Origin: the human T2T-CHM13v2.0 reference genome, Homo sapiens
Strand: one strand, 5' to 3'
Assembly (NCBI RefSeq): GCF_009914755.1
Contig: NC_060943.1
Length of the DNA: 64,000 nt
A program made the position numbers and the translations under genes. Shown here in pieces: positions 26,497-46,543 of this stretch. The notes beneath the pieces were generated by a model that was not told the origin of the DNA, ran no database searches, and saw only the letters and a list, made by a program, of their open reading frames with translations. How positions within the stretch are numbered: the stretch's first letter is position 1; each line of letters starts with the position of its first letter.

Positions 26497-27093
26497 TCAC
26501 ATGAGGGTGCATTTGCCCTTGACGCGGTCTGTCCTCTTCTGCTTCCCGGAGCGCTTGCCGTCGATGTTGAGGCTCATGTTCCGGCGCGTCTCCAGCGTCA
26601 GCAGCTCCTGGAAGAGCTCCTTGACGTTGTAGTTCATCTTGGCCGAGGTCTCCATGAAAGCGCACTTCCACTCCTGGGCCACCGCCTGCGCCTCGCGCGT
26701 GTCCACCTCCCGCTGCGTCTCATCGCACTTGTTGCCCACGAGCATCACGGGGATGTCCTCCACGCTGCCCTTGATCTGCACGATGAGCTTGTAGATGGGC
26801 CCCAGCTCCTCCAGCGACTGCTTGCTGGTGACGGAGAACACCAGGATGAAGGCGTGGCCCTTGGAGATGGACAGGCGCTGCATGGCCGGGAACTGGTGGC
26901 TGCCGGTGGTGTCTGTGATCTGCAGCGTGCACACGCTCTTGTCGCAGCTGATCACCTGCCGGTAGGTGTCCTCGATGGTGGGGATGTAGGTGTCGCGGAA
27001 CGTGCCCTTCACGAAGCGCAGCACCAGCGAGCTCTTGCCCACGCCGCCCGCCCCGAACACCACCACGCGGTAATCGTTACTCTGTTCCGGCAT
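26497..27093 (-). CDS. DIRAS1: DIRAS family GTPase 1 (Di-Ras1/Rig), 198 aa
   Basis: [21 protein letters not shown] (G1), YIPTIEDTY effector loop, DTTGSHQ (divergent G3), NKCD (G4), ETSAK (G5), C-terminal CAAX CTLM. Confidence 0.99.
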
Positions 27094-27162
27094 CTTCCCC
27101 GCGGCGGGTGGGCGGCCGGGGCCGGGAGGGCTGGTGCCAGCTGCAAGAACCCCAGACCGAGC
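27094..27162 (-). other. DIRAS1: 5' UTR part of DIRAS1 exon 2 (69 nt), acceptor CTCCTCTCCGCACAG|GCT
   Basis: Pyrimidine tract plus CAG ending at 27163; a weaker alternative AG lies near 27140. Confidence 0.8.
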
Positions 27163-27799
27163 CTGTGCGGAGAGGAGGGTCACACGTCAAAGGCCACCCA
27201 GGCTTGAGGGGACAGCCCCACGCCCCGGGGAGGGAGGAGGACATGGCGGCTTCTCAGAGGAGGTGGCTGCCGTGCCTCCTGCCTCCTGAAAAGGCCCATT
27301 TGCTTGTGGCTGACTTTGCAGTTCTGTCCCACAGGCGGGCGCACAGCCAACACCCTTTGCTTACTTCTCCCTAACAAAATCTGGGGCCTGAGCTTCCCCG
27401 GGGGACGCTGAGCTAGGAGAGGCGTGGGAGACGCCGGGATGCCCACGAAACTCCTTCCCCGGGTGTGGGTGTCCCTTCCAGGCTGTGCCAGCTTCCCCCT
27501 CTCTTCCCAGTGTGGCAGGGGCCCCTGGAAGCTAGCAGGCCTGGCTTCCACCTCTCGCTCCACACCTGCCTGGCTCTGAGACCTTGCCGAGCCATCATGC
27601 CACCCTGAGCCTGTTTGGTGGCTCAAACGGTGCCCGTCTCCAACAACCATGGGTCCCCTGCTCTTCCGCCAACCCAGAGATGGCTAATCCTCATGGAAGC
27701 CGCACATGGTCGGGTGTTTAAGATGCATATGTCAGGGCCGCAGCCCTAGGTGTGATGAATCGGTCGGCCAGGGCAACGGCCCTGGGAACTCGTATTTTA

Positions 27800-28405
27800 T
27801 TTTATTCTTCTTATTTATTTATTTATTTTTAGACAGAGTTTCGCTCTTGCTGCCCAGGCTGGAGTGCAATGGCACAATCTTGGCTCGCCGCAACCTCCAC
27901 CTCCCGGGTTCAAGCTATTCTCTTGCCTCAGCCTCCCAAGTAGCTAGGATTACAGGCATGCACCACAAAGCCCGGCTAATTTTATATTTTTAGTAGAGGC
28001 AGGGTTTCTCCATGTTGGTCAGGCAGGTCTTGAACTCCTGACCTCAGGTGATCCACCCACCTCGGCCTCCCAAAGTGCTGGGGTTACAGGCGTGAGCCAC
28101 TGCACCTGGCCTTCTTATTTTTTTTAAAACCAAGTCTTGCTCTGTTGCCCAGGTTGGAGTTCAGTGGTGCAATCTCGGCTCACTGCAACCTCTGCCTCCT
28201 CGGTTCAAGCAATTCTCCTGCCTCAGCCTCCAGAGTAGCTGGGATTACAGGCATGCACCACCACACCCGGCTAATTTTTGTATTTTCAGTAGAGACGGGG
28301 TTTCGCCATGTTGGCCAGGCTGGTCTTGAACTCCTGACCTCAGGTGCTCCTCTCGCCTCGGGCTCCCAAAGTGCTGGGATTCCAGGTGTGAGACACCGCA
28401 TCCAG
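27800..28405 (-). mobile_element. Two tandem Alus in the DIRAS1 intron
   Basis: Alu consensus. Confidence 0.95.
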
Positions 28406-44030: not shown

Positions 44031-44539
44031 GTGAGCCTCTGCTGCAGCAGAAGGCTGTGTTTCCACGGAGAAGCCACTTAACTCCCTCACTGACCACCGG
44101 CTGGAGGCCTCATGCATGCCTCGCTTGAGGACAAGCTCATGAGGAACTCTAGCTACTCCCAAGAGACAGACGTTGATCAGGAGAGATGAGGCAGATGCAC
44201 GGGAGCTGTGAACCAGGCACCATTTTCCAGGGGTGACTGAGAGCCTGGCCCTGCAGTGGGTGAGGCTGGGGGCTCGGGAGTAGGGACCTCATCCGCCTGA
44301 CCAGCCCGAGGACAGGAGAACGGCGGGAAAGGTTTGGGTGCCATGAGAAGGCCACTGTGATGAGGGGGAGGGAAGAGCAAGCTCCCCGCAGTCGCCCAGG
44401 CCTGCAGTCAGAGGGTGACGGGGGTGACACCATGACCATGGGGGAAAAGGGGGGCTGGCAGTGGCCTCTGCGATGCAGGAGATGTCAGAGATGACCAAGA
44501 TCTCCATCCTCGCAGTGCAGATGTCAGTCTTCACACACC

Positions 44540-46010
44540 GCGTAACGAACGAATGCAGACTCAGCCACGCGGAACAGCAGGAATGCGGTGTCTCGGCTCT
44601 GAACGGTGGAAATCCAGGTGCGGGCTAGCTGGGCCCTACGCTCCAGGTCTCGCAGGGTGTCATCAGGGCTGAGATCTCACTGACACCCAGGGTCCTCTTC
44701 CAAGCTCACTGGAGGTCGGAAGAGTCCACCTCCTGGTGGCTGTGGACTGAGGCCCCGTGTCCTGGCTGGCTGTTGGCGGGGATGGCTCTTGGCACCGAGA
44801 GGCTGCCCTCGGGTCCTCGCTTCATGCCCTTCTCCTGGCACACCCTGGCTTTTTGCTTCTCCAAGGCCAGCAGGAGGGTGAGTGGCTCACCTGATTAGGC
44901 CAGGCCCACCCCCTCCCTTTTGATGAACTCAGCGCTAACCGATCTGGGGCGGTCATCACAGCTGCAACATCCCCTCTGCTGGGATTCTGACATAATGGCA
45001 GGAGTGACACGCACGGCAGTCCCAGCCCTACCCACACTCGAGGGGAGGGAAGAGCATGGGGCGTGCGGAGCAGGGGCTGGAAGCTCAGGGAGCCACCCTG
45101 GAACTCTACTCTGCCACACTAACAGGCTCAGATGATTTAATCCCAGACAACAGCCCTTCTCCTCCTTTCTGGACACTAGGCACGAGGAAAAGCAGGGCCA
45201 GGGGTTGGGGGATAAGCTTAGGGCTTCCATGCTTTCGTTGGGAGGAAGAACAGGGGGTCCTCATATCTCCACCAAGTATGTAACCAACACAAATTCAATG
45301 TCACATCTGGCACTGGCCCAGAGAGAGGAAGCCACTCACCCAGGGTCACCCAGCAAGCATGGCCAGGGCTGGTCACACTGTGGCCTGACAGGGGACCCAC
45401 ACTCTGGGCTGCTGATATGGGGGAGCTCAAGGAACAGGTCAGCAGAGGATGATGCTGTCAGGAGTTGGGGTGGACAGACTCCAAGATGGCCCCAGAAGCC
45501 CCTGCCTCTTGACAGCCATACCCTGTGAGGTCCTGGCCACTTGAGTATGGGAAGGACTTGAACTTGCTTCTAACCAGCAGGACACTGGGGCAGAGGGGAA
45601 GGGATACCCTGTCACCTCTGCATGACATGGGACTGTGCCCTCTGTCTTACACAGAGTCATGGCCATCTTCTCCATTTGCTGATGAAGGAACTGATCATGC
45701 TGGGGAGGTCCACGTGGCCAGGCTCTGAGGGCTGCCCCAGCCAACAGACACTGACAAACAGACACCTTCGGTCTGACAACCAATGAGGAACTGAACCTGG
45801 CTTACAACCACATGAGCTTAGAGGCCGACCCATCCCCGGTTGAACGTTGAGATGAGACCACAGCCCAGGAGACACTGTGACTGCTGCCTTGTGAGCTCCT
45901 GAAGCAGTGCCCAGACCCCTGACTCACAGAAACTGTGAGATGATAAACGTCTGTAGTCCTAAGGTGCTCAGTTTGCTATAATTTGTTACGCAACAGTAGC
46001 TGACTGATAT
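44540..46010. mobile_element. Two MLT1 LTR fragments in SLC39A3 intron 2 (~44540-45030 -, ~45520-46010 +)
   Basis: GGGTCCTCTTCCAAGCTCACT...GGACTGAGGCCCC; ATTTGTTACGCAACAGTAGCTGACTGATA. Confidence 0.7.
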
Positions 46011-46225
46011 AGGAACCGAAGAGAGGCCATGCTTTCCAGCTTCAGGACAGAGTGTGCCCTACCTAGGTGGGTAGTCTGGTCTGATTATCAGGTGACAACC
46101 GACAAGTCCACCTGTTGGGAATCCCAGGTCTGGTCCAAACCCCTTGTTTGGCCGGTAGAGCACAGAGACAGAAAGTAACCAGTTCACAATCACACAGCAA
46201 ATTCACTTCCTACTTTCCGTCACCC

Positions 46226-46543
46226 TTACAGCATCAAGGCCTTCACTGAACTTGGCATCAGTGTTGAAAATGCATCAGAGTCCCTTGGCCATAAGGTGCC
46301 AAGGGCTGCTGCTAGTGCCCAGGGAGCCCTTACCTTTTCCCTCACAGCGGGCAGCAGAGCGTTGAAGCACGTGGCCAGAAACACCCCTCCTCCAAAGGTG
46401 TTGCAGAGAGAGAGGATCTTTTTCGAGCGATGGGCCTTCTCAAAATCTGTCTCGATGATCTTCACGGGGAGCAGGGAGCCGAGCAGCATGAAGAAGAACA
46501 CGCCCACCATGCACAGGATTTTGGCCACTAGCAATTTCACCAT
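46226..46543 (-). CDS. SLC39A3: Putative 105-aa truncated ZIP3 isoform reading through the exon-2 donor
   Basis: The frame stays open for 35 codons past K70 (VRAPWAL...KALML*). Confidence 0.6.
46334..46543 (-). CDS. SLC39A3: Zinc transporter ZIP3, first coding exon (aa 1-70)
   Basis: Perfect Kozak GCCGCCACCATGG; [26 protein letters not shown] (TM1), [14 protein letters not shown] (TM2); phase-0 donor AAG|GTAAGG; 70+244=314 aa. Confidence 0.98.

What the first reader, a model, noticed from the sequence alone, without database searches (positions are those of the whole stretch)
26497..46543. In-frame SLC39A3-DIRAS1 read-through fusion is encoded by existing splice sites
Seen: SLC39A3 exon 2 ends at phase 0 after K70 (donor 46334). 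The DIRAS1 exon-2 acceptor (27162) lies exactly 69 nt upstream of the ATG with no stop ([23 protein letters not shown]). Joining them over ~19 kb gives 70+23+198 = 291 aa: ZIP3 TM1-TM2, a Pro/Gly linker and a complete GTPase with CAAX. The stop is in the last exon, so NMD is not expected. I saw no AATAAA/ATTAAA on the minus strand between the ZIP3 stop and ~36780, which would favour read-through. Splicing SLC39A3 exon 1 directly to 27162 would instead put normal DIRAS1 under the SLC39A3 promoter. Caveats: native ZIP topology would place the sequence after TM2 on the luminal side, away from prenyltransferases; frame match occurs by chance 1 time in 3; a read-through gene model may already be annotated.
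Basis: partly seen in the sequence, partly recalled or inferred. Interest (0 to 1): 0.8.

Follow-up and report, generated by a model that had tools for sequence, protein, structure and literature searches.

The report
Possible SLC39A3-DIRAS1 read-through chimera
Two neighbouring human genes could in principle be spliced into one in-frame message, but every feature that makes this possible is what chance gives, so it is at most an ordinary low-level read-through product.

Summary
SLC39A3 exon 2 ends in phase 0 after codon 70. The DIRAS1 coding-exon acceptor lies 69 nt before the ATG with no stop. The join would give 291 aa. There is no AATAAA/ATTAAA between the ZIP3 stop and 36780.

None of this exceeds chance:
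- The leader is open in all three frames, and 16180 of 20000 shuffles are open.
- 211 of 630 adjacent same-strand gene pairs on chr19 are frame-compatible in the same way.
- 890 of 1000 composition-matched simulations also lack the hexamers.

RefSeq lists no read-through gene here, though three Gnomon DIRAS1 models already translate the leader.

Public databases hold three ZIP3-N-terminus/DIRAS1 fused gene models (pig, Chinese hamster, ground parrot). DIRAS1 is also fused to GNG7 in four other models, so some of these may be prediction artefacts.

The pig leader corresponds to the human +1 frame, so the leader is not under coding constraint.

Papers mention clone-named genes (AC006538.4 and AC006538.2) that may already be an annotated read-through. 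I could not verify this.

Verdict: a plausible but unproven conjoined transcript of a well-known kind, and probably a by-product. Low interest.

The parts
49231..49303 (-). SLC39A3 exon 1 (non-coding, no ATG); donor GAG|GTAGGT
   Evidence: RefSeq NM_144564.5; ATG count 0; donor
46334..46665 (-). SLC39A3 exon 2. The CDS is 46334-46543 (70 codons, TM1-TM2 of ZIP3). The main ATG sits in GCCACCATGG. Two uATGs lie at 46650 and 46586.
   Evidence: the 70-aa piece alone passes Pfam Zip (41 bits, cut-off 35.1, profile positions 3-62 of 323)
46332..46333 (-). GT of the exon-2 donor (AAG|GTAAGG), phase 0
43827..43832 (-). Intronic AATAAA used by the short isoform b transcript NM_213568 (3' end at 43812)
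41810..42771 (-). SLC39A3 terminal exon 3 (CDS 42037-42771). It would have to be skipped in the chimera. It holds 23 phase-0 GT dinucleotides.
41841..41846 (-). TTTAAA, the only listed poly(A)-signal variant near the annotated 3' end at 41810 (36 nt upstream)
33785..36780 (-). Intergenic stretch with three canonical AATAAA on the minus strand (36775-36780, 35786-35791, 33785-33790) that read-through must pass
30591..30659 (-). DIRAS1 exon 1 (non-coding), skipped in the chimera
27566..27598 (-). Coding start of Gnomon DIRAS1 isoform X1 models (ATG at 27598). It splices to 27162, so the 69-nt leader is already translated in these models (232 aa).
27163..27164 (-). AG of the DIRAS1 coding-exon acceptor; 13 of 18 pyrimidines at -20..-3
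27094..27162 (-). 69-nt leader (5'UTR in NM_145173.4). It is 78% G+C, open in all three frames, and holds no ATG.
27141..27142 (-). Alternative AG. If used, the exon would start at 27140 and the frame would shift, stopping after 113 codons.
26497..27093 (-). DIRAS1 CDS: 198 aa plus stop, Ras domain, C-terminal CTLM

Best explanation
SLC39A3 and DIRAS1 are two ordinary, separately transcribed neighbours on the minus strand, 11 kb apart. The exon-2 donor of SLC39A3 and the acceptor of the DIRAS1 coding exon happen to be frame-compatible.

Proposed mechanism (inferred, not shown):
1. Polymerase fails to terminate at the weak, non-canonical SLC39A3 poly(A) site.
2. The terminal exon 3 is skipped.
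3. The transcript is a conjoined message of the classic kind (second-to-last exon to second exon).
4. If translated from the strong ZIP3 ATG, it would give a 291-aa chimera: ZIP3 residues 1-70, a 23-residue translated 5'UTR, and whole DIRAS1.

I think such a transcript forms at low level as a by-product of leaky termination, and that the chimera is not a selected protein. It may already be carried as a clone-named read-through gene in Ensembl/GENCODE.
For: - Shown: sites, phases and ORF.
- Shown: only TTTAAA lies before the annotated 3' end.
- Shown: the join follows the type I pattern described for read-through chimeras (PMC6862657 passages).
- Prakash 2010 (PMC2953495, abstract and passages) report that new conjoined transcripts were found in 80% of randomly chosen candidate regions. 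Only 48 of 297 kept both parental frames.
- Three database clusters join a ZIP3 N-terminus to DIRAS1 through the leader just before the DIRAS1 ATG: pig P0004, hamster P0003 and parrot P0008.
- Against selection: the leader is open in all frames and in 81% of shuffles. The pig leader aligns to human frame +1 (score 53, 11 of 19 identical) and not to frame 0 (score 22). DIRAS2 homology starts 3 nt before the ATG.
- Lead for an existing annotation: AC006538.4 is grouped with SLC39A1-14 by GeneMANIA (PMC8357404 passage). 'AC006538.2/SLC39A3' is one array cluster (PMC11620538 passage). AC006538.2 is reported as the most down-regulated gene in lower-grade glioma (PMC11152612 passage), and DIRAS1 is strongly down-regulated in glioma (PMC8534260, abstract in listing). 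The 70-aa piece alone passes Pfam Zip, so such a protein would be linked to the SLC39 family by domain.
Against: - I saw no human transcript, EST or junction read. Reads are off.
- RefSeq lists 209 read-through genes of 58563, 12 of them on chr19, and none involves SLC39A3, DIRAS1, GNG7 or SGTA.
- No paper names the fusion.
- No retrocopy of either exon exists in this genome.
- A used intronic AATAAA (43832) and three more canonical hexamers lie in the path.
- The fused models may be prediction artefacts. DIRAS1 is also fused to GNG7 in P0125, P0128, P0015 and P0199, and it carries low-complexity N-extensions in P0130 and P0131.
- Only 1 of the 3 fused models uses the exon-2 donor.
- The AC006538.x names changed between GENCODE naming schemes (recalled). 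The three papers may therefore not refer to one gene, and none says what that gene is.
Confidence: 0.6

Rival explanations
1. Nothing is there in human. The join is never made, and the fused models in other species are gene-prediction artefacts that merge neighbours.
For: - RefSeq has no such model and no paper names it.
- The same databases fuse DIRAS1 to its other neighbour GNG7 in 4 models, and give it meaningless N-extensions under ZIP3 names in 2.
- The hamster and pig models use donors inside SLC39A3 exon 3 rather than annotated ones.
Against: - The parrot model is an NCBI 'isoform X2' that ends the ZIP3 part exactly at the conserved exon-2 boundary ...AVREK.
- The pig entry names a UniRef cluster of 20 members across Boreoeutheria.
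- Conjoined transcripts are reported as routine (PMC2953495).
- The AC006538.x lead.
Confidence: 0.22
2. Read-through mainly serves as an alternative promoter. SLC39A3 exon 1 is spliced to 27162 and yields normal 198-aa DIRAS1 driven by the ubiquitous SLC39A3 promoter.
For: - Exon 1 has no ATG and neither does the leader, so the first ATG would be the DIRAS1 one.
- One GWAS signal colocalises with eQTLs of DIRAS1, GNG7 and SLC39A3 in blood cell types (PMC11259940 passages). This fits shared control.
Against: - It needs exon 2 to be skipped as well, and exon 2 has normal sites.
- No model or paper shows it.
- Shared eQTLs have simpler explanations.
Confidence: 0.08
3. The chimera is a selected, conserved protein: a membrane-tethered DIRAS1 anchored by ZIP3 TM1(-TM2).
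For: - Fused models occur in a bird, a rodent and an artiodactyl, all in frame.
- The stop lies in the last exon.
- The ZIP3 ATG context is strong.
- TM2 is only marginally hydrophobic (best 19-aa Kyte-Doolittle mean 1.49, against 2.5 for TM1). It might not insert on its own, which would leave the GTPase in the cytosol.
Against: - The leader frame is not conserved.
- The linkers are unrelated in length and sequence (10, 18, 22 and 23 aa), and three different donors are used.
- All features are at chance level.
- With native ZIP topology (recalled) the GTPase and its CAAX box would face the lumen.
Confidence: 0.04

Closest known systems
Conjoined genes, also called transcription-induced chimeras or cis-SAGe type I (e.g. 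GALT-IL11RA, TNFSF12-TNFSF13, Kua-UBE2V1, named in PMC6862657 and PMC2953495 passages)
   Same: The two genes are adjacent on the same strand. [quoted passage not shown] The sites are GT-AG parental sites and both frames are kept. As in the two last examples (recalled), the upstream gene would supply a membrane segment.
   Different: Those have mRNA or EST and RT-PCR support. Here I saw no human transcript, and RefSeq lists no read-through locus.
RefSeq Gnomon DIRAS1 isoform X1 (XM_054320003-5)
   Same: It uses the same acceptor at 27162 and translates the same 69-nt leader in the same frame.
   Different: The upstream coding piece is 11 codons from an exon inside DIRAS1 intron 1 that also holds two Alu-like elements. 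It is not SLC39A3 exon 2.
Fused ZIP3/DIRAS1 gene models: P0008 (Pezoporus wallicus), P0003 (Cricetulus griseus), P0004 (pig, A0A4X1VS72)
   Same: Each has a ZIP3 N-terminus, a short translated leader and complete DIRAS1. Each carries Pfam Zip plus Ras.
   Different: The hamster model keeps 104 ZIP3 residues and the pig model about 132, using donors inside exon 3. The linkers are 10, 18 and 22 aa against 23 in human. The pig leader is in another frame relative to human. These are predictions whose evidence I could not see.
SLC39A3 isoform b (NM_213568)
   Same: It has the same first 70 residues (TM1-TM2) followed by a non-ZIP tail.
   Different: The tail is 35 intron-encoded residues. The message ends at an intronic poly(A) site and no second gene is involved.

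Membership tests
Conjoined gene / read-through chimera (cis-SAGe type I) | Two distinct genes, adjacent, same strand, upstream gene first | tested here: met
   Both genes are on the minus strand with a gap of 11151 nt.
Conjoined gene / read-through chimera (cis-SAGe type I) | At least one transcript (mRNA, EST or junction reads) holding exons of both genes | not testable with these tools
   Reads are off. RefSeq has none and no paper names it. The ConjoinG list and the papers' supplements could not be seen.
Conjoined gene / read-through chimera (cis-SAGe type I) | Parental GT-AG sites available: donor of the second-to-last exon, acceptor of the second exon | tested here: met
   The donor is AAG|GTAAGG at 46334 and the acceptor is ...CACAG|G at 27162. 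This shows that the sites exist. It does not show that they are joined.
Conjoined gene / read-through chimera (cis-SAGe type I) | Both parental reading frames kept (chimeric protein class) | tested here: met
   291 codons and one terminal stop. The same holds for 211 of 630 chr19 pairs by frame alone.
Conjoined gene / read-through chimera (cis-SAGe type I) | Junction conserved in other vertebrates | tested here: inconclusive
   1 of 3 fused database models uses the same donor. All 3 enter through the leader upstream of the DIRAS1 ATG. No genomes of other vertebrates were at hand.
Protein-coding sequence (the 69-nt leader) | Reading frame kept between species and open beyond chance | tested here: not met
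   The leader is open in all 3 frames and in 16180 of 20000 shuffles. The pig leader matches human frame +1.
ZIP (SLC39) zinc transporter | Complete Zip domain | tested here: not met
   The chimera would keep only profile positions 3-62 of 323.
Ras-family small GTPase, DIRAS subgroup | Complete G domain and C-terminal CAAX box | tested here: met
   PF00071 scores 162.7 bits over profile positions 1-157 of 162. The C-terminus is CTLM after a basic stretch. The CAAX definition is recalled.

The most novel reading that the evidence does not exclude
A read-through isoform conserved across amniotes puts DIRAS1 behind the ZIP3 TM1 anchor. TM2 is only marginally hydrophobic and could fail to insert. 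In that case the GTPase would stay cytosolic and be tethered to membranes independently of prenylation, under the ubiquitous SLC39A3 promoter. That would give DIRAS1 activity outside the brain.
Probability: 0.04. Interest if true: 0.5.

Novelty: new member of a known kind. Interest (0 to 1): 0.15.

Why it matters
If real and translated, the chimera would be one more case of a membrane segment donated to a signalling domain by read-through. It would also be a source of DIRAS1-containing RNA in tissues where the DIRAS1 promoter is silent. That could confuse expression, eQTL and methylation studies of this locus, which is cited in glioma, Alzheimer and neuropathy papers. As it stands the finding teaches little. 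One third of same-strand neighbours on chr19 have the same frame compatibility.

Tried and rejected
1. Literature.
- 'SLC39A3-DIRAS1' anywhere in the text: 0 papers.
- Both gene names together: 8 papers, by word start and anywhere. By title or abstract start all 8 are GWAS, locus or signature papers.
- I read passages of two of them. Neither uses 'readthrough' or 'read-through', and the one also searched for 'fusion' has 0 occurrences.
- I saw the other six only as listing lines.

2. AC006538 clone names.
- 6 papers, with passages read in all six.
- None says what the genes are, so this remains a lead.

3. Retrocopy of a chimeric message.
- The DIRAS1 coding exon matches itself, DIRAS2 (79%), DIRAS3 and three weaker Ras-family places.
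- SLC39A3 exon 2 matches only itself.
- Gene names for the chr9 and chr1 places are my inference from position and identity.

4. Protein word search for a human fused or N-extended protein.
- None was returned.
- The human Gnomon X1 protein, which does exist in RefSeq, was not returned either.
- 290 and 4172 candidates of unnamed source were left out. A blank here therefore means little.
- Only the best 120 of 330 and of 1171 hits were listed.

5. Poly(A) argument: rejected as evidence.

6. Not done:
- A maximum-entropy splice score, because no model was at hand. I used only consensus and pyrimidine counts.
- Structure prediction, because it would not settle topology.
- The third protein search, because it would not reach human entries.
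- The Atlas search.
- Supplements of PMC2953495 and the ConjoinG list could bear on whether the pair is already listed. I could not see them.
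Full report
**Observation.**
- On the minus strand the SLC39A3 start codon is at 46543. Exon 2 ends at 46334 after exactly 70 codons (...AVREK), followed by GTAAGG.
- The DIRAS1 coding exon begins at 27162 behind ...CCGCACAG. Its ATG is at 27093.
- The 69 bases between them read [23 protein letters not shown] without a stop.
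- Joined in a script, exon 2 and the DIRAS1 exon give 291 codons with one terminal stop.
- No AATAAA or ATTAAA lies on the minus strand between 43827 and 36780.
- The annotated SLC39A3 3' end at 41810 is preceded only by TTTAAA, 36 nt upstream. That TTTAAA is a weak signal variant is recalled.

**Is it more than chance? No.**
- The leader is 78% G+C and open in all three frames. 16180 of 20000 shuffles of it are open. So are 30514 of 63931 69-nt windows on the minus strand of the whole window.
- For a frame control I took every adjacent, non-overlapping, same-strand pair of 'select' mRNAs on chr19. Of 727 such pairs, 97 were unusable: single-exon genes, a non-coding penultimate exon, or a stop before the last exon. 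Of the 630 left, 211 (33.5%) are frame-compatible from penultimate exon to exon 2. SLC39A3/DIRAS1 is one of them. Stops in leaders were not checked in that control.
- The hexamer-free stretch 36781-42036 is 62% G+C. Composition predicts 0.1-0.4 hexamers, and 890 of 1000 first-order Markov simulations have none.
- Read-through would still have to pass several minus-strand hexamers: AATAAA at 43832, which isoform b NM_213568 uses; ATTAAA at 45141; AATAAA at 36780, 35791 and 33790; and five AATAAA in Alu tails at 27801-27827.

**Annotation.**
- RefSeq in this window has NM_144564.5 and NM_213568.2 for SLC39A3, and NM_145173.4 plus three Gnomon models for DIRAS1. It has no gene joining the two.
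- Genome-wide it names 209 read-through genes among 58563, 12 of them on chr19. None involves SLC39A3, DIRAS1, GNG7 or SGTA.
- The three Gnomon models (XM_054320003-5) splice an extra exon, with an ATG at 27598, to the same acceptor. They translate the same leader in the same frame, giving 232 aa. The open, in-frame leader is therefore already on record.

**Related sequences.**
- A word search with leader plus DIRAS1, scored on residues 1-40, returned three proteins that carry both Zip and Ras Pfam domains. A second search with the pig protein returned the same three (best 120 of 330 and of 1171 listed).
- In one search they score 784, 609 and 509 bits. Plain DIRAS1 follows at 430, so no other fused cluster hides in the list.
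- P0008 (ground parrot, NCBI 'isoform X2', 277 aa) is 69 ZIP3 residues ending ...AVREK, a 10-residue linker and DIRAS1.
- P0003 (Chinese hamster, 320 aa) keeps 104 ZIP3 residues and an 18-residue linker that starts like the human one.
- P0004 (pig, UniProt A0A4X1VS72, 352 aa) keeps about 132 ZIP3 residues and a 22-residue linker. Its UniRef name says n=20 across Boreoeutheria. By the UniRef overlap rule (recalled) the members should be of similar length, but I could not list them.
- Against reading much into these models, DIRAS1 is also fused to its downstream neighbour GNG7 in four models (P0125, P0128, P0015, P0199). It carries low-complexity N-extensions under ZIP3 names in two more (P0130, P0131).

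**Leader conservation.**
- The pig linker aligns to the human +1 frame (score 53, 11 of 19 identical), not to frame 0 (score 22). The hamster linker follows frame 0 for 9 of 12 residues and then diverges. The parrot linker is unrelated.
- A frame-shifting indel therefore separates pig and human within the leader. It evolves as untranslated sequence.
- In this genome, DIRAS2 homology to the exon starts 3 nt before the ATG.

**Papers.**
- No paper in the library names the fusion.
- Clone-named genes from this BAC do appear. GeneMANIA places AC006538.4 beside SLC39A1-14 (PMC8357404, passage). 'AC006538.2/SLC39A3' is one array transcript cluster (PMC11620538, passage). AC006538.2 is called the most down-regulated gene in lower-grade glioma (PMC11152612, passage).
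- DIRAS1 is strongly down-regulated in glioma (PMC8534260, abstract start in the listing). The 70-residue ZIP3 piece alone passes the Pfam Zip threshold (41 against 35.1 bits).
- A clone-named read-through gene sharing exons with both parents would explain all three mentions. This is inference. The naming scheme changed between releases (recalled), and no passage defines these genes.

**The hypothetical protein.**
- It would keep Zip profile positions 3-62 of 323, so it is not a transporter. It would keep a whole Ras domain with a basic tail and CTLM.
- TM1 is strongly hydrophobic (19-aa Kyte-Doolittle mean up to 2.5). TM2 is marginal (best 1.49).
- With native ZIP topology (recalled: N-terminus outside) the GTPase and its CAAX box would be luminal, where prenylation and GTP cycling are not expected. 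If TM2 failed to insert they would be cytosolic. The tools cannot decide this.
- The stop is in the last exon, so the exon-junction rule of nonsense-mediated decay (recalled) would not apply.
- Use of the AG at 27141-27142 instead would shift the frame and stop after 113 codons.

**Verdict.** The window holds two normal genes whose existing splice sites allow an in-frame conjoined message of the classic type (PMC6862657 passages). Such messages are reported to be routine, and only 48 of 297 keep both frames (PMC2953495). I consider a low-level by-product transcript, possibly already annotated outside RefSeq, the most likely reality (0.6). Complete absence in human is next (0.22). A selected chimeric protein is unlikely (0.04). 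Nothing here would surprise a specialist.

Noticed in passing
window 27790-28402 (minus strand): Two tandem Alu-like elements sit here, with A-rich tails holding five AATAAA. They lie inside the extra exon of the three Gnomon DIRAS1 models, so that exon looks like retained intron sequence.
   Followed up: partly
proteins P0125, P0128, P0015, P0199 (database models): DIRAS1 is fused to its downstream neighbour GNG7 (Pfam G-gamma) in pangolin, a field mouse and two fishes. Either read-through runs along the whole SLC39A3-DIRAS1-GNG7 row, or predictors merge these genes.
   Followed up: partly
proteins P0130 (Corvus moneduloides) and P0131 (Aix galericulata): These entries are named SLC39A3 / ZIP3 but hold no ZIP3 sequence. 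They are a low-complexity N-extension plus DIRAS1, so they are probably mis-named merged models.
   Followed up: no
window 46544-46665 (minus strand): The 5'UTR part of SLC39A3 exon 2 has two upstream ATGs. One is at 46650 (10 codons). The other is at 46586 (48 codons, overlapping the main ATG out of frame). The main ATG sits in GCCACCATGG.
   Followed up: no
window 43812-43832 (minus strand): The short SLC39A3 isoform b ends at an intronic AATAAA. It encodes the same 70 residues plus 35 intron-encoded ones.
   Followed up: no
whole locus (paper PMC11259940, passages): One GWAS signal colocalises with eQTLs of DIRAS1, GNG7 and SLC39A3 in blood cell types. The three same-strand neighbours therefore seem co-regulated.
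   Followed up: no
whole window: AWTAAA occurs 101 times on both strands against 25.6 expected from shuffles. Many of the hits listed are tightly clustered; I checked only the run at 27796-27827, which lies in A-rich Alu tails.
   Followed up: no
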